A stretch of 64,000 nt of DNA from a virus. How positions within the stretch are numbered: position 1 is the first letter of the stretch; every line of letters starts with the position of its first letter. Positions 1 through 20,155 of the stretch are shown here, piece after piece. A program made the position numbers and the translations under genes. The notes under the pieces were generated by a model. The model had not been told where the DNA came from. It saw only the letters and a list, made by a program, of their open reading frames with translations, and made no database searches. Where the stretch lies: positions 213,090 through 277,089 of the IMG/VR virus record IMGVR_UViG_3300046787_000200. The stretch is one strand, 5' to 3'.

Positions 1-43
1 TTGGTGAAGAAGAATTCTTAAAAGAACACGAACAAACTAAAAT

Positions 44-535
44 GTGGAGGACTCTTTCAAAATGATTTTCAATCACATTAAAGAATTAAAAGCACAAGGA
101 AAGAAGATCGGTATTACTTTTAGTACATTTGATCTTTTACATGCCGGTCATGTAGCTATGTTGAGTGAAGCAAAGAATCATTGTGATTACTTAATTTGTG
201 GACTGCAAACTGACCCTACAATTGATCGACCTGATACTAAGAACAAACCAATTCAAAGTATTGTAGAACGACAGATTCAATTAGCGGCTTGTCGCTATGT
301 TGATGAAGTAGTTGTATATCAAACTGAACAGGACCTCATTGACCTACTGCTTATTCTACCATTAGATGTTCGCATTTTGGGCGTAGAGTATGCAGATAAA
401 GAGTTTACCGGAAGATGGGAAGGTAGTGAGCGCGGCATTGAACTTGTGTTCAATGGTCGTGACCATAGTTTCAGTAGTAGTAGTTTAAGAAAACGAGTAG
501 CAGATGCTCAAATTATAAATACACTTAATAAATAA
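44..535 (+). CDS. HxGH nucleotidyltransferase (cytidylyl/adenylyltransferase; resembles TagD and HldE domain II)
   Basis: 163 aa. N-terminal GITFSTFDLLHAGHV (HxGH motif) and overall pattern match small sugar-phosphate nucleotidyltransferases. Confidence 0.6.
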   Translation: MEDSFKMIFNHIKELKAQGKKIGITFSTFDLLHAGHVAMLSEAKNHCDYLICGLQTDPTIDRPDTKNKPIQSIVERQIQLAACRYVDEVVVYQTEQDLIDLLLILPLDVRILGVEYADKEFTGRWEGSERGIELVFNGRDHSFSSSSLRKRVADAQIINTLNK

Positions 536-536
536 T

Positions 537-1331
537 ATGCCAAAAAGAATACTAATAATGGGTCTTCCAGGATCCGGAAAAACATACCTAGCACAGCACA
601 TTGTAGACCATCTACAAGCTGAAAAGAAAAAAGTTGGTTGGTTAAATGCCGATGACGTTCGTAAAAAGTACAACGATTGGGACTTTAGTACTGAAGGTCG
701 TATTCGTCAAAGCCATCGTATGCGTGAATTAGCAGATGCAATGACTAATGTTGATTATGTGATATGTGACTTTGTTGCACCACTTGTTGAAATGCGTAAC
801 AACTTCAAAGCAGACTGGACTATTTGGGTTGATACCATTGACAAAGGTCGTTTTGAAGATACTAATAAAGCCTTTATTCCACCTGATGTATATGACTTTA
901 GAATCACAGAACAACATGGTGAAAAGTGGGGTGAGTTCATTGCCGCACATATCTTAGATAATAGACGCAGACCGATATTTGATTGGCAAAAAGAAACAGT
1001 ACAGATGTTAGGCCGCTGGCAACCATGGCATGAAGGACATCGTAAATTATTTGAACGATCTATTGCCAAGACAGGACAGGTTGTAATACAGATACGTGAT
1101 TGTCAAGGATGGAATGGTTCTAATCCATTTGCCATCGAACAAGTAAAGAACTTTATTAAACGTGATTTAGATATGTTATATCAAGGTCAATATGAAATTC
1201 AAATTGTTCCAAATATTGTTAATATTACATATGGTCGTGATGTTGGATATAAGATTGAACAAGAAACTTTTGATGATGCTACACATTCTATTAGTGCCAC
1301 AAAGATTCGCAAGGAGATGGGCCTTAAGTAA
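537..1331 (+). CDS. fusion of a P-loop kinase-like domain and an HxGH nucleotidyltransferase-like domain
   Basis: N-terminal Walker A (IMGLPGSGKTYLAQHI). C-terminal WQPWHEGHRKLFE (HxGH). Starts 2 nt after the previous stop. Confidence 0.5.
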   Translation: MPKRILIMGLPGSGKTYLAQHIVDHLQAEKKKVGWLNADDVRKKYNDWDFSTEGRIRQSHRMRELADAMTNVDYVICDFVAPLVEMRNNFKADWTIWVDTIDKGRFEDTNKAFIPPDVYDFRITEQHGEKWGEFIAAHILDNRRRPIFDWQKETVQMLGRWQPWHEGHRKLFERSIAKTGQVVIQIRDCQGWNGSNPFAIEQVKNFIKRDLDMLYQGQYEIQIVPNIVNITYGRDVGYKIEQETFDDATHSISATKIRKEMGLK

Positions 1332-1921
1332 TGTTTTCTGATTTGAAGTTACCTATAGTAATTATTTCATCAATACGTACAGGATCTACCGGCCTTCTTT
1401 TTGAATTAGAAAAGATATTTTTAGAAAAGGGTATCAGTCCTGTAGTATTAAATGAACCTATAGTATATAACAACAAATCAGATTCAGTTATACCATTTTT
1501 AAAATCTATCAATACTAATCAATTTATTCTTAAAGTACATGCATATGATTTACAATATTACCCAAAATATTTTATTAAAAAACTAGAAAATAATTCATAT
1601 AATATTATAAGATTGCGTAGAAAATCAATAATTGATCAATGCTTAAGTTTATATATTAGTCTATATACAAAAATTTGGATTAATACTACTGAAACAAATA
1701 AACAGTTAGAAAATACTACTATTGAAATATCTGAACAATTATTACATAAAACAATTGAGGATGTTAAAAAATTTAATAAAGCTATTGATAATTGTGCATA
1801 TAAATTTTCATTAGATTTAATCTATGAGGATTTGGAATTAACAAAAACGTTTACGGTAAAAAGAAAAACGTCAATAACATACGAAGAACTAAGAAGTCGT
1901 ATTTCCAAAATGATTACATGA
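1331..1921 (+). CDS. hypothetical protein with a weak sulfotransferase-like P-loop
   Basis: 196 aa. Beta-strand followed by IRTGSTGLL, resembling a sulfotransferase PAPS loop. Start overlaps the upstream stop (TAATG). AT-rich. Confidence 0.35.
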   Translation: MFSDLKLPIVIISSIRTGSTGLLFELEKIFLEKGISPVVLNEPIVYNNKSDSVIPFLKSINTNQFILKVHAYDLQYYPKYFIKKLENNSYNIIRLRRKSIIDQCLSLYISLYTKIWINTTETNKQLENTTIEISEQLLHKTIEDVKKFNKAIDNCAYKFSLDLIYEDLELTKTFTVKRKTSITYEELRSRISKMIT

Positions 1922-1959
1922 GTTAAATATCACAACCGGTCTCTTTGGGCTCACCCCGG

Positions 1960-1989
1960 TATACAAATTCTGCGTCCTATGCTATAATC
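1960..1989 (+). promoter_or_regulatory. sigma70-like promoter (weak -35 TATACA, -10 TATAAT) upstream of queD
   Basis: TATAAT at 1984-1989 with 18-nt spacer. Conserved ACATAGGAGA ribosome-binding context before the ATG. Confidence 0.3.
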
Positions 1990-2006
1990 TAACATAGGAG
2001 AAATCA

Positions 2007-2489
2007 ATGGCAAATAAAAAATTCTTTTCAACAAAAACATACAGACAAATAGGTCCTGTCGCATACCGTCAATGGCGTGCTGATAGTCATTGTAATTTGA
2101 TTCATGGCTATGCTATGAGTTTTCACTTTGAGTTTGAAGCCGACACACTAGATGCTCGTAATTGGGTAACTGACTTCGGTGGACTACGCCCACTTAAAGA
2201 TAAACTAGAAGAATGGTTTGACCATACTCTATTAGTCGCACAAGATGATCCTATGCGTGATGAACTATTGCGTTTAGGTGAATTGAAACTAGCAAAGATT
2301 ACAGAAGTAGAACGCACTGGCTGTGAAGGTATTGCTGACTTCTTGTATGAATACATTAACACAATCTTCTTGCCCAATTGCGGTAGTGAAGAAGCTAAAC
2401 GTGTATGGTGCTGTAGAGTAGAGGTCCGTGAGACTGATAGTAATATGGCAGGGCGTGGTGGTCACCGAGAAGATAGAGAGTTTGAATGA
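2007..2489 (+). CDS. queD: 6-carboxy-5,6,7,8-tetrahydropterin synthase (QueD / PTPS family)
   Basis: 160 aa. CxxHGH-type motif SHCNLIHGYAMSFHFEF matches the QueD zinc site and fold pattern. Confidence 0.8.
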   Translation: MANKKFFSTKTYRQIGPVAYRQWRADSHCNLIHGYAMSFHFEFEADTLDARNWVTDFGGLRPLKDKLEEWFDHTLLVAQDDPMRDELLRLGELKLAKITEVERTGCEGIADFLYEYINTIFLPNCGSEEAKRVWCCRVEVRETDSNMAGRGGHREDREFE

Positions 2490-3661
2490 GCAAAAGAGTA
2501 GCAGTAATCGGTGCAGGCATTACCGGCATCACAACAGCATATTACCTTGCTAAACAAGGTTATCAAGTACACGTGTACGAACAAGAGCCTTACCCCGCAA
2601 TGCGTACTAGCTTTGCTAACGGGGGTCAGGTCTCTGTAAGTAACAGCGAAGTATGGACTACATGGAGTAACGTCAAGAAGGGCATCAAGTGGCTCTTTAA
2701 GAAAGATGCTCCACTACTCATTCGCCCTCGTTTAGATTTCAAACAATGGAAGTGGATCGCAAAGTTCTTATACAATACTGCCACCAATCAGTATGAAAAG
2801 AACACTAGCGAAACAATTAAAATGGGCCTAGAATCTAGTAAGTTGTACAAAGAGATTATTTACACAGAGAAACTATCGTTCGACCAATCACCTAGTGGCA
2901 TCTTGCACTTCTACAAAGACGACCAATACTTTGAAGCCGCTAAACAAGCACAAACTATCTATCGTAGTAATGGTTGCGAGTGGGATATTGTTAGTACACA
3001 AAAAGTTAAAGAACTAGAAAGTAAACTAGAATCTGTTAAAGGTATTGTAGGTGGTGCTTGGACATTAAGTGATTGGACCGGAGACATTCACAAGTTTTGT
3101 ATTGAACTAGAGAAAGTATTAAAGAAGAAATACGGTGTAGCCTTCATTTACAATACAACAGTTACCAAAGAGTATATGCAACAGCTAGTTAATTTGTATG
3201 ATAGTGTTGTTGTGTCAGCGGGTGTAGGTAGCGTTGAAATTGCTAAGTATGTCGGTGATAACCTTGATATATATCCAGTCAAGGGTTATAGTATCACTAT
3301 TAACAACGTAGATAAGAAACACTTACCTATCGTTAGTCTATTAGATGACCAGGCAAAGATTGTTACATCAACATTGGGCAACAAGTTCCGTGTTGCAGGT
3401 ACTGCTGAACTTGCAGGTGAGAACTACGATATCAGACACGATAGAGTTAAACCACTATTAGATTGGGTAAGAACTAACTTCCCGAATATCAATACGCATG
3501 ATTACAGTAGTTGGGCTTGCTTGCGACCAATGACTCCTAATATGATGCCTATTACCAAATGTAGTGACAAGAATAGTAAAGTGTACTATAATACAGGACA
3601 CGGTCACTTAGGCTGGACATTAGCACCATACACAGCAAAACTTATTTCGGAACAAATATGA
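2486..3661 (+). CDS. FAD-dependent oxidoreductase (D-amino-acid oxidase / ThiO-like)
   Basis: N-terminal Rossmann motif VAVIGAGITGITTAYYL. C-terminal GHGHLGW block. ATGA overlaps with both neighbours. Confidence 0.7.
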   Translation: MSKRVAVIGAGITGITTAYYLAKQGYQVHVYEQEPYPAMRTSFANGGQVSVSNSEVWTTWSNVKKGIKWLFKKDAPLLIRPRLDFKQWKWIAKFLYNTATNQYEKNTSETIKMGLESSKLYKEIIYTEKLSFDQSPSGILHFYKDDQYFEAAKQAQTIYRSNGCEWDIVSTQKVKELESKLESVKGIVGGAWTLSDWTGDIHKFCIELEKVLKKKYGVAFIYNTTVTKEYMQQLVNLYDSVVVSAGVGSVEIAKYVGDNLDIYPVKGYSITINNVDKKHLPIVSLLDDQAKIVTSTLGNKFRVAGTAELAGENYDIRHDRVKPLLDWVRTNFPNINTHDYSSWACLRPMTPNMMPITKCSDKNSKVYYNTGHGHLGWTLAPYTAKLISEQI

Positions 3662-4506
3662 GTCATTTAAAAGTATCAGAGTTATTTTACAGCATTCAAG
3701 GTGAGGGTAGATACATGGGTGTTCCCTCCGTGTTCTTACGAACATATGGATGTAATTTTACATGCGGTGGATTCGGCATGTCTAAGGGAGAAGTTAGTAG
3801 TGAGAGAGATGTTATTGCGATTAAAGCAGAAGATTATACAGATTATAAATCCCTACCGCTTGTCAGTACGGGATGTGATAGTTACGCAAGTTGGGACCCT
3901 AGGTTTAAACATCTTAGTCCTGTGCTCACTACCGATGCTATTGCTAGTAGCATTATGGATATACTTCCTCATGGGCGTTGGATGGATGAGCATCTTGTTA
4001 TTACAGGTGGTGAACCTCTTCTCGGTTGGCAAAGAGCGTATCCAGAATTACTTTCGCATGAAAAAATGAAGGCATTGAAAGAGATTACATTTGAAACTAA
4101 CGGCACACAAGAACTGAGTCAAGACCTTAAAGTATATCTACAACAATGGAAGATCAACAGAGAAAAGAATGCATTAACATTTAGTGTAAGCCCTAAATTA
4201 AGCATTAGCGGTGAGAAGTGGGAAGAAGCAATTCGTCCTGAGATTATTCATCAATATGAAAGTATAGGCTTTGTATATTTGAAGTTTGTTATTGCTACGA
4301 GTGAGGATGCACTTGAAGCAGATAAGGCAGTTAAAGAATATCGTCACAGAGGATTTAGAGGGCCAGTATACTTTATGCCATGCGGTGGTGTAGAATCACT
4401 TTACAATCTAAATGCTAAGAATGTAGCTATTGAAGCAATGAATCGAGGATATAGATACAGTGATAGATTGCAAGTGCCGTTGTTTAAAAATGAATGGGGA
4501 ACATAA
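3658..4506 (+). CDS. queE: 7-carboxy-7-deazaguanine synthase-like radical SAM protein (QueE)
   Basis: N-terminal ELFYSIQGEG matches the QueE signature. Cysteine motif is GCNFTCGGFG, i.e. non-canonical spacing. Confidence 0.7.
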   Translation: MSHLKVSELFYSIQGEGRYMGVPSVFLRTYGCNFTCGGFGMSKGEVSSERDVIAIKAEDYTDYKSLPLVSTGCDSYASWDPRFKHLSPVLTTDAIASSIMDILPHGRWMDEHLVITGGEPLLGWQRAYPELLSHEKMKALKEITFETNGTQELSQDLKVYLQQWKINREKNALTFSVSPKLSISGEKWEEAIRPEIIHQYESIGFVYLKFVIATSEDALEADKAVKEYRHRGFRGPVYFMPCGGVESLYNLNAKNVAIEAMNRGYRYSDRLQVPLFKNEWGT

Positions 4507-4688
4507 TGAAAGAAATAGTAATAACAAGAAATCAATTTGAGAAATTAAAAGAAGTTTTTGAAATGTACGACCTTGATAGAGTTGTTTGGAAAGAAAATTC
4601 ATCTAGTGGCATCGGTCCCACAGTTACAATTGAATTTGATCCAAAGAGCACAATGAAGATGGACATCACCGATGTTGATAGTTGGTAA
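4494..4688 (+). CDS. hypothetical protein
   Basis: 64 aa ORF overlapping the queE stop; in the operon orientation. Confidence 0.4.
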   Translation: MGNIMKEIVITRNQFEKLKEVFEMYDLDRVVWKENSSSGIGPTVTIEFDPKSTMKMDITDVDSW

Positions 4689-4705
4689 TAATATAAAGGA
4701 AATTA

Positions 4706-5806
4706 ATGAGTTATTTATTTACAAGTGAGAGCGTATCGGAGGGACACCCTGATAAAATTGCAGATGCAATTAGTGATAAAGTATTAGATTTAGTAATGAC
4801 ACATGAGGATCGAGCATTACGTTGTGCATGTGAAACATTGGTTACTACTAATCGTGTTATTGTTGCAGGTGAGTATAAAGGAGTATTGCACAACGAAGCC
4901 GTAGAAAATGCTGTACGTGATGTTATTAAAGATGTAGGTTATGAACAATTAGGTTTTGATTGGCGTACAGTAGAGATTACTAATCTATTGCACGGACAAA
5001 GTGCTGATATTGCGTTAGGTACAGATACGTTTGGTGCAGGTGATCAAGGATTAATGTTTGGCTATGCATGCAATGAAACAGATGTACATATGCCCTCAGC
5101 TATCTATTGGGCGCATCGTATTGTAGAAGAACTAACACAGATTCGTAAGTCAGGGTCAGTTGAATGGTTAGGTCCAGATGCTAAAAGTCAAGTAACATTT
5201 GAATATAACGATGACAATACACCTAAGCGTATTAGTAAAGTAGTGTGTTCAACGCAACACAGTGAAGGTATTGATATCAATTCAGTTAGAATGGGTGTTG
5301 AGAATATCATTCGAGGAATACTACCGGAACAATATTTAGACAATGAAACTGAATTCTTTATTAACCCAACTGGTCGATTTGTTATCGGTGGTCCTGATGG
5401 TGACACTGGGCTTACTGGCCGTAAGATTATCGTTGATACTTATGGTGGGTATAGCCCTCATGGTGGCGGAGCCTTCAGTGGCAAAGATCCTACTAAAGTG
5501 GATAGGTCTGCTGCCTACATGATGCGATATATTGCTAAAAATATTGTAGCAAGCGGACAAGCAAACTGGGCTACTTGTCAGATTAGTTATGCTATTGGTA
5601 TGGCACAACCTATGAGTTTCTACATTGAAACTGCACATACTGAACAAAGTCGCACACTAACAAAATGGGTACAAGACAATGTTGATTTGACACCTAACGG
5701 TATCATTGATCGTTTTGATTTGTTTAGACCGATCTATAGTAGCACAACTAACTATGGTCACTTTGGTAAGCCAGACTTGCCTTGGGAAAAAGTAGATTTG
5801 TTCTAA
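4706..5806 (+). CDS. metK: S-adenosylmethionine synthetase
   Basis: 366 aa. SESVSEGHPDKIADAISD N-terminus and MetK-wide conservation. Confidence 0.9.
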   Translation: MSYLFTSESVSEGHPDKIADAISDKVLDLVMTHEDRALRCACETLVTTNRVIVAGEYKGVLHNEAVENAVRDVIKDVGYEQLGFDWRTVEITNLLHGQSADIALGTDTFGAGDQGLMFGYACNETDVHMPSAIYWAHRIVEELTQIRKSGSVEWLGPDAKSQVTFEYNDDNTPKRISKVVCSTQHSEGIDINSVRMGVENIIRGILPEQYLDNETEFFINPTGRFVIGGPDGDTGLTGRKIIVDTYGGYSPHGGGAFSGKDPTKVDRSAAYMMRYIAKNIVASGQANWATCQISYAIGMAQPMSFYIETAHTEQSRTLTKWVQDNVDLTPNGIIDRFDLFRPIYSSTTNYGHFGKPDLPWEKVDLF

Positions 5807-5807
5807 A

Positions 5808-6038
5808 ATGCCACTAGACGAGTTTATATCACAGGCAGATGATTATTTCTATAAGAGATGTTTGGGGGCCGAGCTTAAATTTGCTTGGTTGCCCAAGACT
5901 TGTTATATATCCGGTAAAACTATTTGGTTGAAATACGGGTACAAAATGACAGCCATGTGGACTGGCCCTGATGATCCTGTCTTTGAACACAGATGGCACG
6001 ATAAGAATACCCATATTATATGGAAACTAACGAGGTAA
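5808..6038 (+). CDS. hypothetical protein
   Basis: 76 aa ORF starting 2 nt after the metK stop. Confidence 0.4.
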   Translation: MPLDEFISQADDYFYKRCLGAELKFAWLPKTCYISGKTIWLKYGYKMTAMWTGPDDPVFEHRWHDKNTHIIWKLTR

Positions 6039-6042
6039 ATAC

Positions 6043-6222
6043 ATGTATGAGTTAAGATATCTTGTCCGTCCTGGTTGGGATGGACCTGAAAAAGTGTTAC
6101 AATATAGAACACAGATTGAAGTTTCTGATTATAGTGCAGTAAATCCTAGAACTAGTGACTATATTAGAAAACTTGAATGGACAGAATGGCGTGACGTGCC
6201 AGTAGTAGATGAAACAAAATGA
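6043..6222 (+). CDS. hypothetical small protein (59 aa)
   Basis: Not in the ORF track (<60 aa). Its stop overlaps the next start (ATGA). Confidence 0.35.
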   Translation: MYELRYLVRPGWDGPEKVLQYRTQIEVSDYSAVNPRTSDYIRKLEWTEWRDVPVVDETK

Positions 6223-7550
6223 GAACATACGATAAACGCATTGGATTTTTAGTAAGCTATCAAACACTAATACCGCATGGTGGTATTGGACAATTTACAA
6301 AAAGTTTTTGTGAGTTGATGGATAGTCATAACATTAAAGTAGATATCATTACTGATAAGTTACCCCAAGACAATGAGTTTATTAAATCTATTCCGACTAA
6401 TATTATAGCACCAGCAGAATCATTACGATATACTGAGCATAGTAATATTTTTATGTATGGTGATACTTTCTGTTATGAACGTATGGCTAACTTCCGTAAT
6501 AGTATTATTAAAGCATTGAGTAGTAATTTATATGATGCATTAGTTTGCAATACATACGAGACTGTTCAAGTGGCTAGCACTATGGGTCTTGATGATTGCA
6601 TTCAAATCATCGCATATACTCATTTAGAAAGTCAAATCTTTAAAGATACAAAGAACCCTTTCTTATACAATACAAATGCAATGATGCGACAGCAATTAGA
6701 TACACCGGGAGTATATGTAGGGACTCAAAGTAAATTTAATCAATTGAATATCAGTGATACTGCGTATCATCTTCCTATCCCTATTACAGAGAAATCATTA
6801 TTAGAAGAATATCACGGACCACGTGAAGGTGTATTATTCGTTGGTCGTTGGGAAGAAGGCAAGAACCCTGAATTGTTTATTGACTTAATTGAACAGACTG
6901 GGTTGCCTGCTAAGGTTATGACTAGTCCTAATGGTGTAAAGAAGTTTGAAGATAGACTAGCAAAAATTGGTGCTGTGTTTGATGTTCGTTCTAGTATCAT
7001 TGGTCAAGAGAAAGTTGATTTCATCAAGTCAAGTCGTATTGCATTTAATCCTAGTGTAGTCGAAAGTTATGGCATGGCATTCTATGAACAACACATTCAA
7101 TTGCCTACGTTAGTATTAGAGAGCCAACGATGGACTAAAAACTTCAATGAAGATTTCTTTTACAAATGCACAAAGAAAGACATGGCTAAGAGTGCACAAG
7201 AGTTATATGATAGTTTTGAGAAACCAGAAACTTGGTATAACTTAGGATCATTGGATCATGCTAAACAGCAAGAAGATAGTGTATTTCACAAGTGGAATAG
7301 TTGCTTCCGTGAATTTCAGCCTAAGTTATCTAACAGTAATACAGCTAAAATTTGTAATGAAACAACTATTACACATTCTGACTTCATTGAAAATCTAGGT
7401 CGTAGTGTAATTTGTATTGATGATGTTCGTAGCGTGTTGACCAACAAACATAAGTTTAGAGTTATCTATACAGACAATGACACTTATTTAACTAAAGATC
7501 CAGTCTTTGAACCAGCAGAAGAAACTAGTGAGGAATTATTTCAGTGGTAA
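6219..7550 (+). CDS. glycosyltransferase, GT-B / GT4-like
   Basis: 443 aa. LFVGRWEEGKN ... VESYGMAFYEQ resembles the GT4 E-x7-E donor-binding region. Confidence 0.5.
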   Translation: MRTYDKRIGFLVSYQTLIPHGGIGQFTKSFCELMDSHNIKVDIITDKLPQDNEFIKSIPTNIIAPAESLRYTEHSNIFMYGDTFCYERMANFRNSIIKALSSNLYDALVCNTYETVQVASTMGLDDCIQIIAYTHLESQIFKDTKNPFLYNTNAMMRQQLDTPGVYVGTQSKFNQLNISDTAYHLPIPITEKSLLEEYHGPREGVLFVGRWEEGKNPELFIDLIEQTGLPAKVMTSPNGVKKFEDRLAKIGAVFDVRSSIIGQEKVDFIKSSRIAFNPSVVESYGMAFYEQHIQLPTLVLESQRWTKNFNEDFFYKCTKKDMAKSAQELYDSFEKPETWYNLGSLDHAKQQEDSVFHKWNSCFREFQPKLSNSNTAKICNETTITHSDFIENLGRSVICIDDVRSVLTNKHKFRVIYTDNDTYLTKDPVFEPAEETSEELFQW

Positions 7551-8377
7551 AAAAAGTTTTAATTACAGGTAACAGTGGTTACATAGGTTCACATCTTACT
7601 AAGATGTTAAAGAATGATTATGAAGTTTATGGATTAGATAAAGTAGAGCCACAAGAGTCACCTCATACATTCTATCATTGTGATATCAATCGTCAGTTTA
7701 GTTTAGAAGATGAGTTTGATTGTGTGATTCATTTAGCCGCATTGGTTAATGTAGGTGAAAGCGAAATCAAACCTATTCCATATTACATTACTAATTTGAA
7801 TGGCACAATGAATGTGTTGAATAAAATTAAAACAAAGAACTTTATCTTTGCAAGCACAGGAGCCGCACAAGATTGTTGTAGTGCATACGGAATTAGTAAA
7901 CGTGCGGCAGAAGATGTAGTTAGAGAATATTGTATCACCCATCGTCCAACACCATATACAATCTTTAGATTTTATAATGTTATTGGAAGCGAAGGCTTTG
8001 CTCCCACTAACCCCGATGGATTGATGTATAATCTAATTATGGCTATGCAATCAAAACAGTTTACTATATTCGGTAATGATTATGATGTATCACCTGATGG
8101 CACTTGTATTAGAGATTATGTTCATGTAAATGAAATATGTGATGCATTAAAACAAGCTATTGAGAAACCTAGTAATAGTGTAGAATGTTTGGGTCACGGA
8201 GTAGGATATACTGTAAAAGAGATTGTTGATGAGTTTCAAAAAGTCAATAATATCAACTTCAACGTGAAATACGGTTCAAGAAGAAAGGGTGATGTGGCCA
8301 GTAGTGTATTAGAAGATGTATCTCCTTATATGCGTAATTTGTATACAATAGACGAGTTGCTAAAGGTTGACAAATAA
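7544..8377 (+). CDS. NAD-dependent epimerase/dehydratase (SDR family)
   Basis: VLITGNSGYIGSHL Rossmann motif and a YGISK (YxxxK) catalytic motif. Confidence 0.7.
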   Translation: MVKKVLITGNSGYIGSHLTKMLKNDYEVYGLDKVEPQESPHTFYHCDINRQFSLEDEFDCVIHLAALVNVGESEIKPIPYYITNLNGTMNVLNKIKTKNFIFASTGAAQDCCSAYGISKRAAEDVVREYCITHRPTPYTIFRFYNVIGSEGFAPTNPDGLMYNLIMAMQSKQFTIFGNDYDVSPDGTCIRDYVHVNEICDALKQAIEKPSNSVECLGHGVGYTVKEIVDEFQKVNNINFNVKYGSRRKGDVASSVLEDVSPYMRNLYTIDELLKVDK

Positions 8378-8591
8378 TACATTTGGGTATATAATAGAGT
8401 CTTATTCAGTTGATTTACAGGGTAACAAAATGTCAGAAAAAGTAGAGCTTTATTGCACCCAAAATGACGAAGGTCAATGGCTTGTTTGGTTCCCTCATCC
8501 CTTAGGCGGTATGAATGTCTTGGAAACATTCGACAATGAAACCGACGCTAGGGCTTTTCACCAAGATCAAATTGATAGTGCTGAAATTTGA
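8367..8591 (+). CDS. hypothetical protein
   Basis: 74 aa. Its stop codon TGA lies inside the -35 of the downstream promoter. Confidence 0.4.
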   Translation: MTNNTFGYIIESYSVDLQGNKMSEKVELYCTQNDEGQWLVWFPHPLGGMNVLETFDNETDARAFHQDQIDSAEI

Positions 8592-8616
8592 CAATAAATG
8601 GCAATTGTGCTATAAT
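8588..8616 (+). promoter_or_regulatory. consensus sigma70-type phage early promoter TTGACAATAAAT-N-TATAAT
   Basis: TTGACA at 8588-8593, TATAAT at 8611-8616, 17-nt spacer. Confidence 0.55.
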
Positions 8617-8650
8617 ACTTGTATTGAGTTAATTAAAGGAATATAGATAT

Positions 8651-9322
8651 ATGGTTACGCAAACTAAATCGTTCAAATTGCCTAAAAATTTTCCACCAGT
8701 GGACAATGGTAGTGTATACAAAGAAATTACAAAAGTCATTAAAAACAATGAATTTGTATTTGATTTGGATAACCAAATATCAATGTTGGCATTACAAAAA
8801 ATGTTACCAGAGTATCCTTTTACTAAGGTTGCTGATTGTGTTTTGAATGTAGCTGAAAACTTTTTAGGTAAAAGTCTCTCTAGAAGAAAATATATTGATA
8901 GTATGTCATTTCAAGGTAATCTAGTTGATTATATTCCGGTAGCTGATATCAAAGCTTTGTGGGACGCTAGTCCTAAAGAATGGGTATACACTATTGTATA
9001 CAATGGTAAAATTGTTAAAATTGGCATGACTAGTTCGGGATTATCATCTAGGTATACTTCATATAAATCCGGAACTACCTTAGCAATGATTAAGGGTAGT
9101 TGTGCTACAACTAATTTTGTAGTTACACAATGCAATTATCTCGCATTATTGAAGAATATTAAGGTTGAAATTTTTGCATATGAAATTCCTCAGTTGATTA
9201 CTGAGCAGATTATTTTTGGCAAAAAAGAAAAAGTGCTAAATAAAGTAGCACATCAATTTGAATCTACCTTAATCAATATATACAAAGATTCAAAAGGATA
9301 TATTCCACCTTTGTGCGGATAA
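8651..9322 (+). CDS. hypothetical protein with a possible degenerate GIY-YIG nuclease motif
   Basis: VYTIVYNGKIVKIGMTSSGLSSRYTSY resembles GIY..YIG..R. Weak call. Confidence 0.3.
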   Translation: MVTQTKSFKLPKNFPPVDNGSVYKEITKVIKNNEFVFDLDNQISMLALQKMLPEYPFTKVADCVLNVAENFLGKSLSRRKYIDSMSFQGNLVDYIPVADIKALWDASPKEWVYTIVYNGKIVKIGMTSSGLSSRYTSYKSGTTLAMIKGSCATTNFVVTQCNYLALLKNIKVEIFAYEIPQLITEQIIFGKKEKVLNKVAHQFESTLINIYKDSKGYIPPLCG

Positions 9323-9335
9323 TTATAAAAACTTA

Positions 9336-10253
9336 ATGAAAACTAAATCTTTAATCAAAGCGCAGACTGTTGCTAAAATAAAAATAAAAAAAGAATTGGA
9401 TAAGTTTTACACACATCCAGACATTGCAAAGAAATTTGTTGATTATATAAATGCGTTAGTACCTTTATCTAACTTCGGCACAGTATTAGAACCTTCTGCC
9501 GGCTCAGGAAACATATTACAATTTCTACCGAACACTGCAATTGGAATGGACCTATACCCAGAATCAAAGAATATTATTCAACAAGATTTTTTCACATATG
9601 AACCGGAAGGGTACCCCTTTCCAGGGGTACCGATAGCGTGTGTAGGTAATCCACCATTCGGTAACGGTTATATGAATCCGTTGGCTAAAGGATTTTTTAA
9701 TCATGCGGCTAAATTCAGTGATGTAATAGCATTTATTGTTCCGGCAAAATGGCACACATCGTGGAAAGTTCATAAACAATTAGATACTAGATTTGGATTA
9801 TATTTTAGCGAAATTCTTCCTAAAAATAGTTTTTTATTAAATGATATAGCATATGATGTAAACTGTTGTATGCAAATTTGGAGTAAGAACGCATTAGGTA
9901 CCAATTTAAGAATTATTACGAAACCAAAAACATCGCATGAAGATTTTGATTTCTTTTTGACTTGTGACAATGTTCCCAGAAAAAAAGAAGTTATCCAACA
10001 ATTAACTAATAAAGAATATTGGGAATTTGGTTTGAAATACTGGGGAAAGATTGGTTTATGTGAGATCACTGACGTGCCGATAACCACTACAACTCATTAC
10101 TTGTTTAAATCTAAAAAGCCCTATGTTAGGTCTATCTTAGAGCAAATTGATTGGATGAAATATGTTTCTAATATGGGAGCCCCTAATATCGGTGGCAAGT
10201 CTATTCTTGTCAAAGCATATGAAGATAAAAAACACGAACTACAAATTAAATAA
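9336..10253 (+). CDS. DNA N6-adenine/N4-cytosine methyltransferase (amino-MTase, motif I then IV)
   Basis: LEPSAGSGNIL (motif I) and GNPPFGNGY (motif IV, NPPF). Confidence 0.7.
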   Translation: MKTKSLIKAQTVAKIKIKKELDKFYTHPDIAKKFVDYINALVPLSNFGTVLEPSAGSGNILQFLPNTAIGMDLYPESKNIIQQDFFTYEPEGYPFPGVPIACVGNPPFGNGYMNPLAKGFFNHAAKFSDVIAFIVPAKWHTSWKVHKQLDTRFGLYFSEILPKNSFLLNDIAYDVNCCMQIWSKNALGTNLRIITKPKTSHEDFDFFLTCDNVPRKKEVIQQLTNKEYWEFGLKYWGKIGLCEITDVPITTTTHYLFKSKKPYVRSILEQIDWMKYVSNMGAPNIGGKSILVKAYEDKKHELQIK

Positions 10254-18413: not shown

Positions 18414-18907
18414 TACCAAACACCCTCATTACGCATACGTTTAATATAAGTTAAGAATCCACTACATACCCCGTAGCTTCTTACCTTTACCATAGAATAT
18501 AAACTACGGTCGTTTATTTCCGGTAAAAACATAACACTATTATTGTTAATAGGAACTGTTCCGGGCGTTATTAGTTTACCATTACTAGCAGTCACATATG
18601 CAGGTGGAGGTGTAGGGGTTTCAAACCAAAAATAATTTGGATACACACTAATGGATTGGTCTGAAATCCAAGTCTGCATATCTTCATTCTTAGCATTAAT
18701 CCAGAATCTAGGACCTTTTATATAGTCAGCACTAACTTCAAATTGCGGTACAGGTTGTCCGTTGCCTACATACAATTTATTATCTATTCTCCAAACATCA
18801 ATTAAACATGAATATCCGGATCCTAGTGCTTTGTTTATTTGTTTGGGTAGATTGGCATCTTGGTAATTGGTACCATCGTAAATTCCCTGGTAAGATATAT
18901 ATAACAT
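18410..18907 (-). CDS. hypothetical protein
   Basis: 165 aa minus-strand ORF with diverse composition, convergent with upstream plus-strand genes. Confidence 0.4.
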   Translation of the reverse strand: MLYISYQGIYDGTNYQDANLPKQINKALGSGYSCLIDVWRIDNKLYVGNGQPVPQFEVSADYIKGPRFWINAKNEDMQTWISDQSISVYPNYFWFETPTPPPAYVTASNGKLITPGTVPINNNSVMFLPEINDRSLYSMVKVRSYGVCSGFLTYIKRMRNEGVWY

Positions 18908-18998
18908 AATATGTATTTATGTCAACGTATATAATAGCTGCCGCGTTATATATATGTAGACAATAAATTCTACTTCATTAACATAAAGGAAACTTAAA

Positions 18999-19259
18999 AT
19001 GAAAACATTAGCAATCGCAACATTAACAGCATTATCTTTCACAGCATTTGCCGCAGAACCAGCTAAAGCCCCTGCAACACCTGCTCCGGCAGTAGTAGCA
19101 CCGGCTGCACCTGCTAAAGCAGAAGCACCAAAGACTGAAATGAAGTTGGCTAAGAAGAAAGAAGATAAAAAGGCAGATGCCACTAAAAGTGCCCCTGCCA
19201 AGACAGAAGCGGCTCCAGCAACAACTGCTCCAAAACAAGACGCCAAGCCAACTAAGTGA
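18999..19259 (+). CDS. secreted Ala/Pro/Lys-rich low-complexity protein
   Basis: Signal peptide MKTLAIATLTALSFTAFA followed by AP/K-rich repeats. GGAAAC ribosome-binding site upstream. Confidence 0.5.
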   Translation: MKTLAIATLTALSFTAFAAEPAKAPATPAPAVVAPAAPAKAEAPKTEMKLAKKKEDKKADATKSAPAKTEAAPATTAPKQDAKPTK

Positions 19260-19458
19260 AGTAGATGATGACGAAAGCTACGATACGGTCGAAATTGACT
19301 TACATCGTGGCTTTAGTCGCCCGAAACTAATCACAGTTAATCTTTGGGATGATGATACTGAACTACCTGAACATATCACAAAAAGACTTGAAAACGCAAG
19401 AATTAAAGCATTGATGGCATATCATAGTAAATATACAAATGATTTTACCAAAGATTAA
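19177..19458 (+). CDS. hypothetical ORF overlapping the previous gene in the +1 frame (the acidic portion after 19260 looks protein-like)
   Basis: No in-frame ATG downstream of 19260. Either a long overlap or a frameshift fusion. Confidence 0.2.
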   Translation: MPLKVPLPRQKRLQQQLLQNKTPSQLSEVDDDESYDTVEIDLHRGFSRPKLITVNLWDDDTELPEHITKRLENARIKALMAYHSKYTNDFTKD

Positions 19459-20155
19459 GCTTATCACCTTTTCAAATCAATGTTTAGAATATTCAGGGTT
19501 AGACACATTAGAAGATTGTTTTGATAAAGAGCATTTTTTAAACTATCCATATAAAGTTGAATATAAGTACAACTCTAGGGGATTCAGAGGGCCTGAATGG
19601 CCTTCTGATTTAACCAACGTATGTTGGTGTGTGGGAGATAGTTTTACAGCCGGCCTAGGCTCACCATTCAATCATACTTGGCACTATGTATTAGCAGAGA
19701 AATCAAATATACAAACTGTAAATGTAAGTATGGACGGTGCTAGTAATTCTTGGATTTGTCGTAAAACTTTAGACTTGTTAACAATAAAACCAAAAAATAT
19801 TATAATACAATGGTCATATATTCATCGTAGAGAAACAGATAATATACATGATTTGGATGAAGTAAGGCGCATATATTCAATCAATACAACAACTGAGCAG
19901 GATATGCAACATATTATTGATTGTATTGATAAAGTAGAATCAAATAAAGAACAAACAAATATAATTCATACATTTATACCAGCATGTGTTCCTGAATCAG
20001 AAAAGAAACATTTTAAGGCACTAATAGAAAAGATGGATATAAACGTAGTTTTGTTTGACCAAGTAGATCGGGCAAGAGACGGTCATCATTATGATATCCA
20101 AACTAGTAGCAACTTAGCAGAAAAGTTGATACAATCTAAATATATAAATATTTAA
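19439..20155 (+). CDS. SGNH/GDSL-like hydrolase
   Basis: CVGDSFTAGLG (GDS block) and ARDGHHYD (DxxH block). Paralogous to the ORF at 61902. Confidence 0.45.
   Translation: MILPKIKLITFSNQCLEYSGLDTLEDCFDKEHFLNYPYKVEYKYNSRGFRGPEWPSDLTNVCWCVGDSFTAGLGSPFNHTWHYVLAEKSNIQTVNVSMDGASNSWICRKTLDLLTIKPKNIIIQWSYIHRRETDNIHDLDEVRRIYSINTTTEQDMQHIIDCIDKVESNKEQTNIIHTFIPACVPESEKKHFKALIEKMDINVVLFDQVDRARDGHHYDIQTSSNLAEKLIQSKYINI

What the first reader, a model, noticed from the sequence alone, without database searches (positions are those of the whole stretch)
2007..5806. 7-Deazaguanine module queD - FAD oxidoreductase - queE followed by metK
Three ORFs with overlapping stop and start codons (ATGA at 2486 and 3658) encode QueD, a DAO/ThiO-like FAD-dependent oxidoreductase, and a QueE-like radical-SAM enzyme. 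SAM synthetase lies 200 nt downstream. QueD and QueE make the preQ0 precursor used by phages for 7-deazaguanine DNA modification. An FAD oxidoreductase translationally coupled between them is not part of the canonical pathway and may catalyse a new tailoring step. MetK would supply the SAM consumed by QueE. FolE, QueC and DpdA are not in this window and should be elsewhere in the genome if DNA is modified.
Basis: partly seen in the sequence, partly recalled or inferred. Interest (0 to 1): 0.7.

Follow-up and report, generated by a model that had tools for sequence, protein, structure and literature searches.

The report
Borrowed flavoenzyme inside deazaguanine operon
The QueD and QueE genes belong to a known type of phage system that replaces guanine in DNA with a 7-deazaguanine, but the flavoenzyme between them is an optional gene picked up from marine bacteria and is most likely not a new step in that pathway.

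Summary
QueD-like (2007-2489), a DAO-family flavoenzyme (2486-3661) and QueE-like (3658-4506) overlap by ATGA. MetK (4706-5806) follows after a conserved 64-aa ORF.

QueD and QueE belong to a widespread QueC-less 7-deazaguanine DNA-modification module. In syntenic relatives this module has FolE, a DpdL-type decarboxylase homologue and a divergent DpdA-like transglycosylase upstream, and a GT-B-like protein plus epimerase downstream (window 6219-8377).

The flavoenzyme is a DadA-type D-amino-acid dehydrogenase homologue (453.5 bits to NF009074). Its nearest cellular relatives (47-53% identity) are in Pelagibacterales and SAR86. It is accessory:
- Only 1 of 20 unbiased modules of the window's type has it, and 1 of 80 DpdA2 modules.
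- In 33 other phage loci it lies in or beside nrdA-nrdB with no pathway gene within 10 kb.
- Against the closest flavoenzyme-less relative it is a clean ORF-sized insertion (2488-3667) into a variable cargo slot.

MetK is also an indel.

Verdict: an ordinary new member of a known system carrying an auxiliary gene, not a new tailoring step. The DNA product of this module family has not been measured.

The parts
1960..1988 (+). Promoter-like site (TATACA-17-TATAAT with a TG extended -10), followed by a GGAG Shine-Dalgarno sequence before the QueD start. It is a candidate operon promoter.
   Evidence: This is weak evidence, because promoter-like hits in 1-9000 are not enriched over shuffles. The segment 1924-2487 including this site is conserved at 90% DNA identity in L237.
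2007..2489 (+). QueD-like 6-carboxytetrahydropterin synthase (PTPS/T-fold). It belongs to a phage subfamily in which the third zinc ligand is Tyr (HGY instead of HGH).
   Evidence: PF01242 E=6.9e-16 and phrog_2389 E=1e-40. It is 70% identical to Acidovorax phage ACP17 QueD and up to 96-100% identical to QueD in flavoenzyme-less modules. Residues C27, H31, D70-H71, E86 and E110 (E. coli numbering) are conserved, and H33 is Tyr.
2486..3661 (+). DadA-type FAD-dependent amino-acid dehydrogenase or oxidase homologue. It is an accessory, host-derived cargo gene inserted precisely between QueD and QueE.
   Evidence: NF009074 453.5 bits over full length and PF01266 E=6e-58. Nearest cellular homologues are 47-53% identical, in Pelagibacterales, other marine Alphaproteobacteria and SAR86. 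The SAR86 orthologue passes NF009074 at 518 bits. The window protein keeps 108 of 122 bacterial-invariant residues. It is absent from 19 of 20 unbiased modules. Window 2488-3667 is missing in L237 and L221.
3658..4506 (+). QueE-type radical-SAM 7-carboxy-7-deazaguanine synthase with a 36-residue insertion between cluster Cys2 and Cys3 (C32-x3-C36-x36-C73).
   Evidence: phrog_2076 E=1.5e-53. It is 47% identical to Synechococcus phage BUCT-ZZ01 QueE and 34% to the only QueE of Vibrio phage nt-1. All columns invariant with E. coli QueE are kept: Q12, E14, G15, G19, R26, three Cys, D38, TGG-P, ET-G and S-K.
4494..4688 (+). Conserved 64-aa ORF of unknown function. It overlaps the end of QueE and is part of the 4507-5873 indel.
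   Evidence: Homologues at 52-91% identity lie directly after QueE in L003, L006-L011, L019 and L064. There is no Pfam, NCBIfam or PHROG hit.
4706..5806 (+). S-adenosylmethionine synthetase (MetK), an accessory cargo gene.
   Evidence: TIGR01034 480 bits, above the cut-off. It is present in only 5 of the 24 related flavoenzyme loci that carry QueE. Window 4507-5873 is absent from L237 and L221.
6219..7550 (+). GT-B-like (GT4-like) protein 'GT443', a conserved member of the deazaguanine module.
   Evidence: It is 39.5% identical to the gene between FolE and the DpdA2-like gene in BUCT-ZZ01. It is present in 35 of 80 DpdA2 loci immediately upstream of DpdA2. A profile of the family hits TreT and other GT-B enzymes weakly, E=0.002. 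The L003 orthologue gives Glycos_transf_1 at 2.5e-5, below the cut-off.
7544..8377 (+). GalE-like NAD-dependent sugar-nucleotide epimerase, a conserved module member.
   Evidence: PF01370 E=3.4e-34 and TIGR01179 161 bits, below the cut-off. It is present in 18 of 21 QueD+QueE flavoenzyme loci and 31 of 80 DpdA2 loci, next to QueD or GT404.
44..535 (+). HldE-domain-II-like nucleotidyltransferase. In relatives it lies between FolE and QueD.
   Evidence: PF01467 and phrog_7878 E=2.6e-31. It is present in 31 of 80 DpdA-like loci between FolE and QueD, at up to 98% identity.
537..1921 (+). P-loop kinase plus NMNAT-like fusion (537-1331) and a 196-aa unknown ORF (1331-1921). Together they are a third accessory indel.
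   Evidence: Window 539-1923 is absent from L237, L221, L215 and L010. The kinase is present in 13 of 80 DpdA-like loci.

Best explanation
The region is the QueD-QueE core of a QueC-less phage 7-deazaguanine DNA-modification module, into which an unrelated flavoenzyme gene has been inserted.

The module.
- Inferred pathway: GTP goes to H2NTP by FolE, to CPH4 by QueD, and to CDG by QueE.
- A DpdL homologue is proposed in the literature to decarboxylate CDG to 7-deazaguanine.
- A DpdA-type transglycosylase then exchanges the base into DNA.
- FolE, DpdL and the DpdA-like gene lie just upstream of the window in syntenic relatives.
- A GT-B-like protein and an epimerase downstream (6219-8377) are conserved module members of unknown role.

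The flavoenzyme.
- Shown: it is a DadA-type D-amino-acid dehydrogenase homologue whose nearest cellular relatives are in marine bacteria. It is an accessory cargo gene dropped as a precise ORF-sized cassette into a variable slot between QueD and QueE.
- Inferred: it was acquired from bacteria of that kind. It is expressed by read-through and translational coupling. It most probably still oxidises an alpha-amino acid (D-amino acid or glycine type) as an auxiliary metabolic function.

MetK and the kinase/NMNAT pair are likewise cassette indels.
For: Module identity.
- QueD is 70% identical to ACP17 QueD, and QueE is 47% identical to BUCT-ZZ01 QueE. Both phages have FolE, DpdA2-like and DpdL or GT neighbours.
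- The 80 DpdA2 loci show a compact QueE-FolE-GT443-DpdA2-DpdL-GT404-Epim-QueD module, with QueD up to 96% identical to the window's.
- The 80 DpdA-like loci show DpdA-like, DpdL, (ManC), GT404, FolE, NTase, QueD, QueE, GT443 and Epim in that order, with NTase up to 98% and QueD up to 100% identical.
- The DpdA-like family aligns to DpdA2 by hhalign at 92% probability, E=5.8e-7, with DSGGxQ aligned.
- QueE catalytic and cluster residues are all conserved.

Flavoenzyme as cargo.
- It is present in 1 of 20 unbiased QueD+QueE modules and 1 of 80 DpdA2 loci.
- The 83 flavoenzyme loci split into 33 Nrd-context, 21 QueD+QueE, 19 QueD only, 3 QueE only (truncated) and 8 neither. Family HMMs find no pathway gene within 10 kb in the Nrd and 'neither' groups.
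- Contexts interleave in the flavoenzyme tree.
- Window 2488-3667 is a clean indel against L237 and L221, where QueD and QueE abut at TAATG.
- The QueD-QueE gap ranges from 3 nt to 3.8 kb. It holds more than 12 unrelated families, including endonuclease-VII-type genes.

DadA identity.
- NF009074 scores 453.5 bits for the window, 469 for a Pelagibacterales orthologue and 518 for a SAR86 orthologue.
- Of 122 bacterial-invariant residues, 108 are kept in the window protein and 98 in at least 90% of phage copies, equally in all contexts.
- The LRP arginine that aligns with the carboxylate-binding Arg302 of glycine oxidase is kept (the role of that residue is from memory).
Against: - QueD lies within about 2 kb upstream of the flavoenzyme gene, always in that order, in 38 of 83 loci. 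These include about 12 distinct lineages that lack QueE and FolE within 10 kb. That could reflect a QueD-linked function rather than inherited synteny.
- About 12 residues invariant in the bacterial orthologues are systematically changed in the phage copies (R296T, K137S, E173K, Y192W and others), so the substrate may have shifted.
- The window itself does not contain FolE, DpdL or DpdA, so their presence in this genome is inferred from relatives.
- No member of this module family has had its DNA analysed. ACP17 dpdL plus dpdA gave no dDG in E. coli (PMC10516641).
- The QueD subfamily lacks one canonical zinc ligand.
Confidence: 0.72

Rival explanations
1. The flavoenzyme acts on a pathway intermediate. 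The chemically most plausible substrate is CPH4. Its N5-C6(COOH) unit is a cyclic alpha-amino-acid motif of the kind that proline, pipecolate and D-amino-acid dehydrogenases oxidise. The enzyme would then divert or tailor the QueD product, for example to 6-carboxy-dihydropterin, or modify a later deazaguanine derivative.
For: - Both junctions are translationally coupled.
- QueD is directly upstream of the flavoenzyme gene in 38 of 83 loci, including QueD-flavoenzyme pairs with no QueE or FolE within 10 kb (L067-71, L078, L081 and others).
- L166 has the flavoenzyme gene right after QueD at the end of a DpdA2 module.
- About 12 bacterial-invariant positions are systematically altered in the phage copies.
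- The chemical argument is inference only.
Against: - 19 of 20 unbiased modules of the same type and 79 of 80 DpdA2 modules lack the gene.
- 33 loci carry it in or beside nrdA-nrdB with no QueD within 10 kb.
- QueD alleles 96-100% identical to the window's occur in flavoenzyme-less modules, so there is no co-adaptation.
- The QueD-only loci share the window's downstream synteny (Epim, UvdE), so the adjacency is inherited rather than repeatedly gained.
- The pathway has no QueC or QueF, so there is no aminomethyl group for an amine oxidase to act on.
- The gene is a clean cassette indel.
- No FAD enzyme is mentioned in the two key pathway papers.
Confidence: 0.13
2. The flavoenzyme serves nucleotide metabolism or redox supply in general, for example supporting ribonucleotide reductase. 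It could feed electrons into the respiratory chain during infection or generate an oxidant for NrdB cofactor assembly. Its placement in early nucleotide-metabolism operons (nrdA-nrdB, QueD-QueE) would reflect co-expression needs.
For: - In 33 loci the gene lies in or beside nrdA-nrdB. In many it is between the two genes with overlapping stop and start codons on both sides (L004, L029, L038-40).
- SHMT lies directly upstream of it in L244.
- The other slot cargo is largely nucleotide or one-carbon metabolism: a PRTase, a GMP-reductase-like enzyme and SHMT.
Against: - No known RNR system uses a DAO-family flavoprotein (from memory).
- The nrdA-nrdB junction is a classic insertion hot spot in T4-like phages, for example mobE (from memory), so this position may also be a cargo slot.
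- The gene is absent from most relatives.
- The bacterial orthologues are not linked to nrd genes.
Confidence: 0.1
3. The QueD-like and QueE-like genes are not used for DNA modification. They would boost host queuosine-tRNA precursor supply or make a free pterin or deazapurine metabolite.
For: - The curated QueD and QueE equivalog models are far below their cut-offs.
- The QueD subfamily lacks one zinc histidine.
- PMC6884629 notes that phages with preQ0-pathway genes but no DpdA might boost Q synthesis.
- PRTase and GMP-reductase-like genes occur in related modules.
Against: - In relatives the same genes are tightly clustered with DpdA2 or the DpdA-like protein and with DpdL.
- PMC10516641 reports a DpdA in all phages shown to carry 7-deazaguanine DNA.
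- It also reports complete G replacement in phiST, which has the same QueD subfamily plus DpdL.
Confidence: 0.05

Closest known systems
QueC-less 7-deazaguanine DNA modification clusters with DpdL (Cellulophaga phage phiST, Acidovorax phage ACP17; Hutinet et al. 2023, PMC10516641)
   Same: - FolE, QueD, QueE and a DpdL homologue are present, QueC is absent, and a TGT-superfamily transglycosylase lies next to DpdL.
- The window QueD is 70% identical to ACP17 QueD and shares the HGY active-site variant with phiST and ACP17 QueD.
- The ACP17 GT-like gene (ASD50404) has homologues in the module.
   Different: - The transglycosylase of the window's clade is a 512-538-aa family related to DpdA2 only at profile level. 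It is not detectably related to DpdA1 or DpdA3.
- The module carries two GT-B-like genes, an epimerase and nucleotidyltransferases that the paper does not discuss.
- FolE, DpdL and DpdA are outside the window.
- The window carries a flavoenzyme and MetK as insertions.
Vibrio phage nt-1 / KVP40-type DpdA2 system (Hutinet et al. 2019, PMC6884629)
   Same: - QueE belongs to the same subfamily, 34% identical over full length, with the same insertion between cluster Cys2 and Cys3.
- The transglycosylase is of the DpdA2 type.
   Different: - nt-1 has QueC and an ArcS-like gene and makes dPreQ0 and dG+ at low levels.
- The window's module family lacks QueC and has DpdL instead.
Bacterial D-amino-acid dehydrogenase DadA, NCBIfam NF009074 (PRK12409) type
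   Same: - The match is full length, 453.5 bits, E=7.7e-136.
- Identity to Pelagibacterales and SAR86 orthologues is 47-53%.
- The window protein keeps 108 of 122 invariant residues, including the FAD-binding GxGxxG and the LRP arginine.
   Different: - The score is below the curated cut-off of 494.
- About 12 invariant bacterial residues are systematically replaced in phage copies.
- The gene is encoded in phage operons (QueD-QueE or nrdA-nrdB) rather than on bacterial chromosomes, where its neighbours are housekeeping genes.
Glycine oxidase ThiO (PDB 1NG3, 1RYI, 7CYX), the closest solved structures
   Same: It has the same DAO fold family, and the C-terminal substrate-domain motifs align, E=3e-11.
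   Different: The relationship is distant: TIGR02352 gives 106 bits against a cut-off of 251. No thiamin genes are nearby.

Membership tests
QueE (7-carboxy-7-deazaguanine synthase, radical SAM) | Three cysteines ligating the [4Fe-4S] cluster (CxxxCxxC or a spaced variant) | tested here: met
   C32, C36 and C73 align with the three E. coli QueE cluster cysteines. A 36-residue insertion lies between Cys2 and Cys3 and is shared with nt-1 and BUCT-ZZ01 QueE. The alignment to B. subtilis QueE (5TGS) is split at the same place.
QueE (7-carboxy-7-deazaguanine synthase, radical SAM) | N-terminal QGEG substrate motif, the Arg before the cluster, and the TGGEP, ETNG and SPK motifs | tested here: met
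   The columns invariant across E. coli, window, nt-1, BUCT-ZZ01, ACP17 and phiST QueE are Q12, E14, G15, G19, R26, D38, T91-G92-G93-P95, E117-T118-G120 and S135-K137.
QueE (7-carboxy-7-deazaguanine synthase, radical SAM) | Score above the curated equivalog cut-offs | tested here: not met
   TIGR03365 53 bits against 206, TIGR04322 47.5 against 200, TIGR04508 42.5 against 240. The PHROG family 'QueE-like' matches at 1.5e-53. The protein is a divergent phage subfamily.
QueE (7-carboxy-7-deazaguanine synthase, radical SAM) | Conversion of CPH4 to CDG | not testable with these tools
   The indirect evidence is that the orthologue is the only QueE in nt-1, whose DNA contains dPreQ0 (PMC6884629), although host QueE could contribute there.
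QueD (6-carboxytetrahydropterin synthase, PTPS-I) | Catalytic Cys in the CxxxHGH motif, plus the Asp-His pair and Glu residues | tested here: met
   C27, H31, D70-H71, E86 and E110 (E. coli numbering) are invariant in the alignment with E. coli QueD and the experimentally validated phage 9g QueD.
QueD (6-carboxytetrahydropterin synthase, PTPS-I) | Three histidine zinc ligands (H16, H31, H33 in E. coli) | tested here: inconclusive
   H31 is kept. H33 is Tyr (HGY) in the window and in ACP17, phiST and BUCT-ZZ01 QueD. H16 aligns either to Tyr or to the His preceding the Cys, depending on the alignment.
QueD (6-carboxytetrahydropterin synthase, PTPS-I) | Score above the curated equivalog cut-off | tested here: not met
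   TIGR03367 gives 35.4 bits against 89.25. Pfam PTPS passes at 58.8 against 22.4.
Phage 7-deazaguanine DNA-modification system | A DpdA (TGT-superfamily) transglycosylase encoded by the phage | tested here: inconclusive
   None is found in the 64-kb window. In syntenic relatives a 512-538-aa protein with LGDSGGFQ lies next to DpdL, about 7-9 kb upstream of QueD. Its hhalign match to DpdA2 is 92% probability, E=5.8e-7. It has no Pfam or PDB sequence hit.
Phage 7-deazaguanine DNA-modification system | FolE together with QueD and QueE (CDG synthesis) | tested here: inconclusive
   QueD and QueE are in the window and FolE is not. FolE is present upstream of the NTase in 17-18 of the 21 QueD+QueE flavoenzyme loci (tblastn 17, family HMM 18) and in the closest relatives L010, L215 and L237. 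The window starts just downstream of that position.
Phage 7-deazaguanine DNA-modification system | A modified deoxynucleoside in virion DNA | not testable with these tools
   This needs LC-MS. No phage with this exact module type has been analysed. ACP17 was only tested heterologously, without product (PMC10516641).
D-amino-acid dehydrogenase DadA (NF009074) | Full-length match above the curated cut-off | tested here: not met
   The score is 453.5 bits against 494, over residues 3-391 of the protein and positions 2-403 of 410 in the model. The SAR86 orthologue passes at 517.8 and the Pelagibacterales one scores 469.3.
D-amino-acid dehydrogenase DadA (NF009074) | Conservation of residues invariant among the cellular orthologues | tested here: met
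   The window protein keeps 108 of 122. At least 90% of 84 phage copies keep 98 of 122. Twelve are systematically changed.
D-amino-acid dehydrogenase DadA (NF009074) | FAD-dependent oxidation of D-amino acids | not testable with these tools
   No solved DadA structure was found by sequence search. The nearest structures are glycine oxidases.
Dedicated pathway (tailoring) enzyme of the deazaguanine module | Co-occurrence with the module across relatives | tested here: not met
   The gene is in 1 of 20 unbiased modules that have QueD and QueE and 1 of 80 DpdA2 modules. In 33 of 83 flavoenzyme loci it is in Nrd context with no pathway gene within 10 kb.

The most novel reading that the evidence does not exclude
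Two novel readings are not excluded.

(a) The more likely one concerns the module. The QueC-less module to which these genes belong occurs on more than 500 viral contigs. It pairs a previously unclassified DpdA-like transglycosylase and DpdL with two GT-B-like proteins, a sugar epimerase and nucleotidyltransferases. It may therefore make a DNA base beyond the eight known 7-deazaguanines, for example a sugar-bearing or otherwise extended derivative. That would also explain why ACP17 dpdL plus dpdA alone gave no dDG in E. coli.

(b) The less likely one concerns the flavoenzyme. In the minority of phages that carry it, the DadA-like enzyme has been recruited to oxidise CPH4 or another intermediate, creating a branch of the pathway.

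The probability given is for (a) or (b) being true. I put (b) alone at about 0.1.
Probability: 0.3. Interest if true: 0.75.

Novelty: new member of a known kind. Interest (0 to 1): 0.3.

Why it matters
The claim as posed, a new FAD-dependent tailoring step in 7-deazaguanine synthesis, does not hold up, so little changes for the pathway itself. Three things are still useful.

1. It is a caution for annotation. In these tightly packed phage genomes, overlapping stop and start codons do not indicate functional coupling, and the QueD-QueE and nrdA-nrdB junctions act as cargo slots.
2. A DadA-type dehydrogenase is a widespread, strongly conserved auxiliary gene of large aquatic phages. Its nearest cellular relatives are in Pelagibacterales- and SAR86-type bacteria. 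I found no description of it in the searched literature.
3. The surrounding module is abundant in environmental viromes and has an unmeasured DNA product. It comprises a divergent DpdA-like protein, DpdL, two GT-like proteins and an epimerase. It is a good target for nucleoside mass spectrometry.

Tried and rejected
- Megablast of 2007-5806 against deposited phages found no match.
- The window's own contig is not on record, so the sequence upstream of position 1 could not be read.
- tblastn, phmmer and a three-sequence DpdA2 HMM found no DpdA2, DpdA3 or QueC in the window or in the flavoenzyme loci. The DpdA-like family was recognised only from its DSGGFQ motif and by hhalign.
- Pfam, PDB sequence and PDB profile searches of the DpdA-like protein were all empty. 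hhalign against DpdA1 of phage 9g found nothing.
- Intersecting contig names between the DpdA2 loci and the flavoenzyme loci found none in common. Only 80 of 399 DpdA2 loci were returned, so this is uninformative.
- I considered whether the KVP40/nt-1 'QueE-like' singleton is a non-QueE paralogue. I rejected this because the nt-1 preQ0 cluster has no other QueE.
- I considered whether the window QueD-like protein is DpdL. I rejected this because it keeps the catalytic Cys, and the true DpdL homologues are a separate family found upstream in relatives.
- I considered a ThiO or MnmC identity for the flavoenzyme. I rejected this because those models match only weakly or only over the Rossmann N-terminus.
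- The bacterial neighbours of the DadA orthologues gave no functional clue: acyl-CoA dehydrogenase, glyoxalase I, EfeU and a histidinol-phosphatase-like gene.
- Literature searches for DpdL, for GT-linked deazaguanine modules and for phage D-amino-acid dehydrogenase AMGs found nothing beyond the two Hutinet papers.
- Structure prediction was not used. The tools return no coordinates, so active-site mapping of the 12 changed residues was not possible, and loci proteins cannot be submitted.

Full report
OBSERVATION

Both junctions read ATGA.

- The first protein is a PTPS/QueD-family protein: PF01242 6.9e-16 and phrog_2389 1e-40, but only 35 bits on the curated QueD model against a cut-off of 89.
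- The second is a DAO-family flavoprotein. Its best model by far is the DadA-type D-amino-acid dehydrogenase NF009074, at 453.5 bits over the full length against a cut-off of 494.
- The third is 'QueE-like': phrog_2076 1.5e-53, with the curated QueE models at 42-53 bits against cut-offs of 200 or more.
- The fourth is a bona fide MetK, at 480 bits against 309.

The 199-nt spacer before MetK holds a conserved 64-aa ORF (4494-4688). The window is a fragment of a large phage genome. It encodes UvdE, a FEN/RNase H, an ATP-dependent ligase and ClpX, is almost entirely on one strand, has about 36% GC and no tRNAs. It has no close DNA relative among deposited phages.

ARE QueD AND QueE REAL?

I aligned the QueE-like protein with E. 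coli QueE and with phage QueEs from nt-1, BUCT-ZZ01, ACP17 and phiST. It keeps every invariant column: QGEG, the Arg before the cluster, three cluster cysteines, TGGEP, ETNG and SPK. A 36-residue insertion lies between Cys2 and Cys3 and is shared with nt-1 and BUCT-ZZ01. In nt-1, whose DNA contains dPreQ0 and dG+ (PMC6884629), this orthologue is the only QueE in the genome, because the preQ0/DpdA2 cluster there has none.

The QueD-like protein keeps the catalytic Cys, the Asp-His pair and both Glu. The third zinc histidine is Tyr (HGY). This variant is shared by the QueDs of phiST, ACP17 and BUCT-ZZ01 but not by the experimentally validated 9g QueD. It is not DpdL, which lacks the Cys and forms a separate family.

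I therefore accept both as QueE and QueD of a divergent phage subfamily. The activity is inferred, not shown.

WHAT THE GENES BELONG TO

The closest isolate relatives are Acidovorax phage ACP17 (QueD 70%) and Synechococcus phage BUCT-ZZ01 (QueE 47%).
- ACP17 has QueD, FolE, an unknown gene, a DpdA2-like gene, a GT-like gene, a DpdL homologue and QueE, in that order.
- BUCT-ZZ01 has QueE, a PRTase, an unknown gene, QueD, FolE, a homologue of window 6219-7550 and a DpdA2-like gene.

A scan of viral contigs with a DpdA2 alignment returned 80 loci with a compact module: QueE-FolE-GT443-DpdA2-DpdL-GT404-epimerase-QueD. The counts out of 80 are FolE 74, DpdL 70, QueE 66, GT404 63, QueD 57 and QueC only 3. 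QueD proteins there are up to 96% identical to the window's.

In the window's own clade the position next to DpdL is occupied by a 512-538-aa protein containing LGDSGGFQ.
- Pfam and PDB sequence searches see nothing in it.
- hhalign relates it to DpdA2 at 92% probability, E=5.8e-7, over 195 columns that include the DSGGxQ motif.
- It shows no relationship to DpdA1 of 9g or DpdA3 of phiST.

Scanning with this family returned more than 500 relatives. The recurrent order is DpdA-like, DpdL, (ManC-like), GT404, FolE, NTase, (kinase), QueD, QueE, GT443, epimerase. NTase is up to 98% and QueD up to 100% identical to the window.

The window therefore begins just downstream of the FolE position. It contains the distal half of a QueC-less, DpdL-type 7-deazaguanine module of the kind described for phiST and ACP17 (PMC10516641). 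FolE, DpdL, DpdA and QueC are absent from the window itself by iterated family HMMs.

IS THE FLAVOENZYME PART OF THE PATHWAY?

Five independent lines say no.

1. Distribution when selected on the flavoenzyme. There are 83 viral and metagenomic loci with this protein at 55-88% identity. Of these, 33 have it in or beside nrdA-nrdB, often with overlapping stop and start codons on both sides, and with no QueD, QueE, FolE, DpdL or DpdA within 10 kb. A further 21 have QueD and QueE, 19 have only QueD, 3 have QueE only because the locus is truncated upstream, and 8 have none of these.

2. Distribution when not selected on the flavoenzyme. Among 20 DpdA-like-family loci that contain both QueD and QueE, only one has it. 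Among 80 DpdA2 loci, only one has it.

3. Indel structure. blastn of window 1-9000 against L237 and L221 gives collinear blocks at 75-90% identity, interrupted by three clean gaps.
- 539-1923: the kinase/NMNAT fusion plus the 196-aa ORF.
- 2488-3667: the flavoenzyme ORF and nothing else.
- 4507-5873 against L237 (4509-5829 against L221): the 64-aa ORF plus MetK.

In L237 the QueD stop overlaps the QueE start as TAATG.

4. A cargo slot. The QueD-QueE interval ranges from 3 nt to 3.8 kb and holds more than a dozen unrelated families. These are a class II aldolase, a radical-SAM/SPASM protein, a PRTase, SHMT, a methyltransferase, Bax1-I and a GMP-reductase-like enzyme. Four loci also have an endonuclease-VII-type gene immediately before QueE.

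5. Phylogeny. Nrd-context and QueD-context copies interleave in a neighbour-joining tree. For example, L004, L005 and L014 (Nrd context) are sister to the window's clade. The tree has no support values, so this is indicative only.

WHAT THE FLAVOENZYME IS

Its nearest cellular homologues, at 47-53% identity, are chromosomal genes of Pelagibacterales, other marine Alphaproteobacteria and SAR86. A 59% 'bacterial' hit is a phage QueD-flavoenzyme fragment binned into a MAG. The SAR86 orthologue passes the curated DadA model at 518 bits, and its neighbours are unrelated housekeeping genes.

Of the 122 residues invariant among 17 bacterial orthologues, the window protein keeps 108. At least 90% of 84 phage copies keep 98, with no difference between contexts. 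About 12 are systematically changed. The LRP arginine aligning with the carboxylate-binding arginine of glycine oxidase is present (the residue's role is from memory).

The best reading is a host-derived DadA-type amino-acid dehydrogenase kept under purifying selection as an auxiliary metabolic gene. It is co-expressed with whichever early operon it sits in. Its substrate in infection is unknown.

RESIDUAL CASE FOR A PATHWAY ROLE

QueD lies immediately upstream of the flavoenzyme gene in 38 of 83 loci, including about 12 lineages without QueE or FolE nearby. CPH4, the QueD product, contains a cyclic alpha-amino-acid motif that is chemically a plausible substrate for this enzyme class (inference).

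Three points weigh against this.
- These QueD-only loci share the window's downstream synteny (epimerase, UvdE), so the adjacency looks inherited.
- QueD alleles 96-100% identical to the window's work in flavoenzyme-less modules.
- The Nrd-context copies are equally conserved.

I put this rival at about 0.13.

MetK

MetK is part of an indel. It is present in only 5 of the 24 related flavoenzyme loci that carry QueE. By established biochemistry QueE regenerates SAM in each turnover. The 'SAM supply for QueE' rationale is therefore not supported.

COMPARISON AND NOVELTY

The locus is a new, uncultured member of the known QueC-less DpdL-type deazaguanine systems. It has a divergent DpdA2-like transglycosylase and carries cargo insertions.

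Neither key paper mentions the two GT-B-like genes or the epimerase, which are conserved next to DpdA2 and DpdL. [quoted passage not shown] The DNA product of this abundant module family is therefore an open question. That question, rather than the flavoenzyme, is the interesting lead.

VERDICT

Interest is 0.3.

Noticed in passing
L003:761-2338 (also L006:2096-3712, L032:3219-4796, L042:3312-4868, L064:1607-3145, L052:896-2452); not in the window: A 512-538-aa protein family with LGDSGGFQ always lies just upstream of DpdL. It is related to DpdA2 only at profile level (hhalign 92%) and not to DpdA1 or DpdA3. It has no Pfam or PDB hit and more than 500 relatives in viral contigs. It may be an unclassified DpdA subfamily.
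   Followed up: partly
window 6219-7550 and 7544-8377; L088:12195-13223 (ACP17); L001:10778-12121 (BUCT-ZZ01): Two GT-B-like proteins (GT443, GT404) and a GalE-like epimerase are conserved inside QueC-less deazaguanine modules, directly next to DpdA2 and DpdL. The two Hutinet papers do not mention them. They may indicate a further, sugar-related step.
   Followed up: partly
window 3751-3876 (QueE residues 32-73): The radical-SAM cluster motif is C-x3-C-x36-C. The 36-residue insertion lies between Cys2 and Cys3 and is shared with the QueE of nt-1 and BUCT-ZZ01. This differs from the known Cx14CxxC variant, where the insert is between Cys1 and Cys2 (the latter from memory).
   Followed up: partly
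window 2091-2111 (QueD residues 29-35, CNLIHGY): This phage QueD subfamily has HGY instead of HGH, so the third zinc ligand is Tyr. The same is true in phiST, ACP17 and BUCT-ZZ01 QueD. The validated 9g QueD has HGH.
   Followed up: partly
QueD-QueE interval in L225, L230, L244, L246, L253, L279, L290, L008, L011, L058: The interval is a variable cargo slot of 3 nt to 3.8 kb. It holds a class II aldolase, a radical-SAM/SPASM protein, a PRTase, SHMT, a methyltransferase, Bax1-I and a GMP-reductase/IMPDH-like enzyme. An endonuclease-VII-type gene lies right before QueE in four loci and is a possible homing-endonuclease driver of the shuffling.
   Followed up: partly
L119-L123, L137-L140, L150-L165 (DpdA2 loci); L001:8861-9322: A phosphoribosyltransferase sits next to QueE in 21 of 80 DpdA2 modules. 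Together with GMP-reductase-like genes in some relatives this resembles the nucleotide-level steps of toyocamycin and tubercidin biosynthesis (from memory). It hints that some modules may process the base as a nucleotide.
   Followed up: no
L004:10001-11176 (361-kb contig), L029, L038-L040, L014, L018, L026: The same DadA-like gene lies between nrdA and nrdB with overlapping stop and start codons on both sides, in jumbo-phage contigs. The L004 neighbourhood also has NifU, IscA-like and two radical-SAM genes.
   Followed up: partly
window 537-1331 and 1331-1921: A fusion of a P-loop (APS-kinase-like) kinase with an NMNAT-like nucleotidyltransferase, plus a 196-aa ORF with no family hit. Together they are an indel against L237, L221, L215 and L010.
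   Followed up: partly
window 53530-54261 (- strand): A Peptidase_S11 D-alanyl-D-alanine carboxypeptidase (E=8.6e-36) is one of the few minus-strand genes. It would release D-Ala, a possible substrate for the DadA-like enzyme. No linkage was tested.
   Followed up: no
L170 (JBDNIA010000411.1, 'Crocinitomicaceae' MAG, 6.3 kb): This contig carries QueD followed by the DadA-like gene at 59% identity. It is almost certainly a phage fragment mis-binned into a bacterial MAG.
   Followed up: partly
window 9336-10253; 31604-32416; 36712-37914: Other cargo-like genes in the window are a DNA-methyltransferase-like protein (phrog_799/5172), an SPFH/Band 7 protein and a ClpX homologue with its zinc finger.
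   Followed up: no
L244:17409-18596 and 18593-19762: In the single unbiased module that contains the DadA-like gene, it is immediately preceded, with an overlap, by a serine hydroxymethyltransferase (PF00464, E=8e-143), which produces glycine. This is a hint, from one locus only, that the flavoenzyme works in amino-acid or one-carbon metabolism.
   Followed up: no
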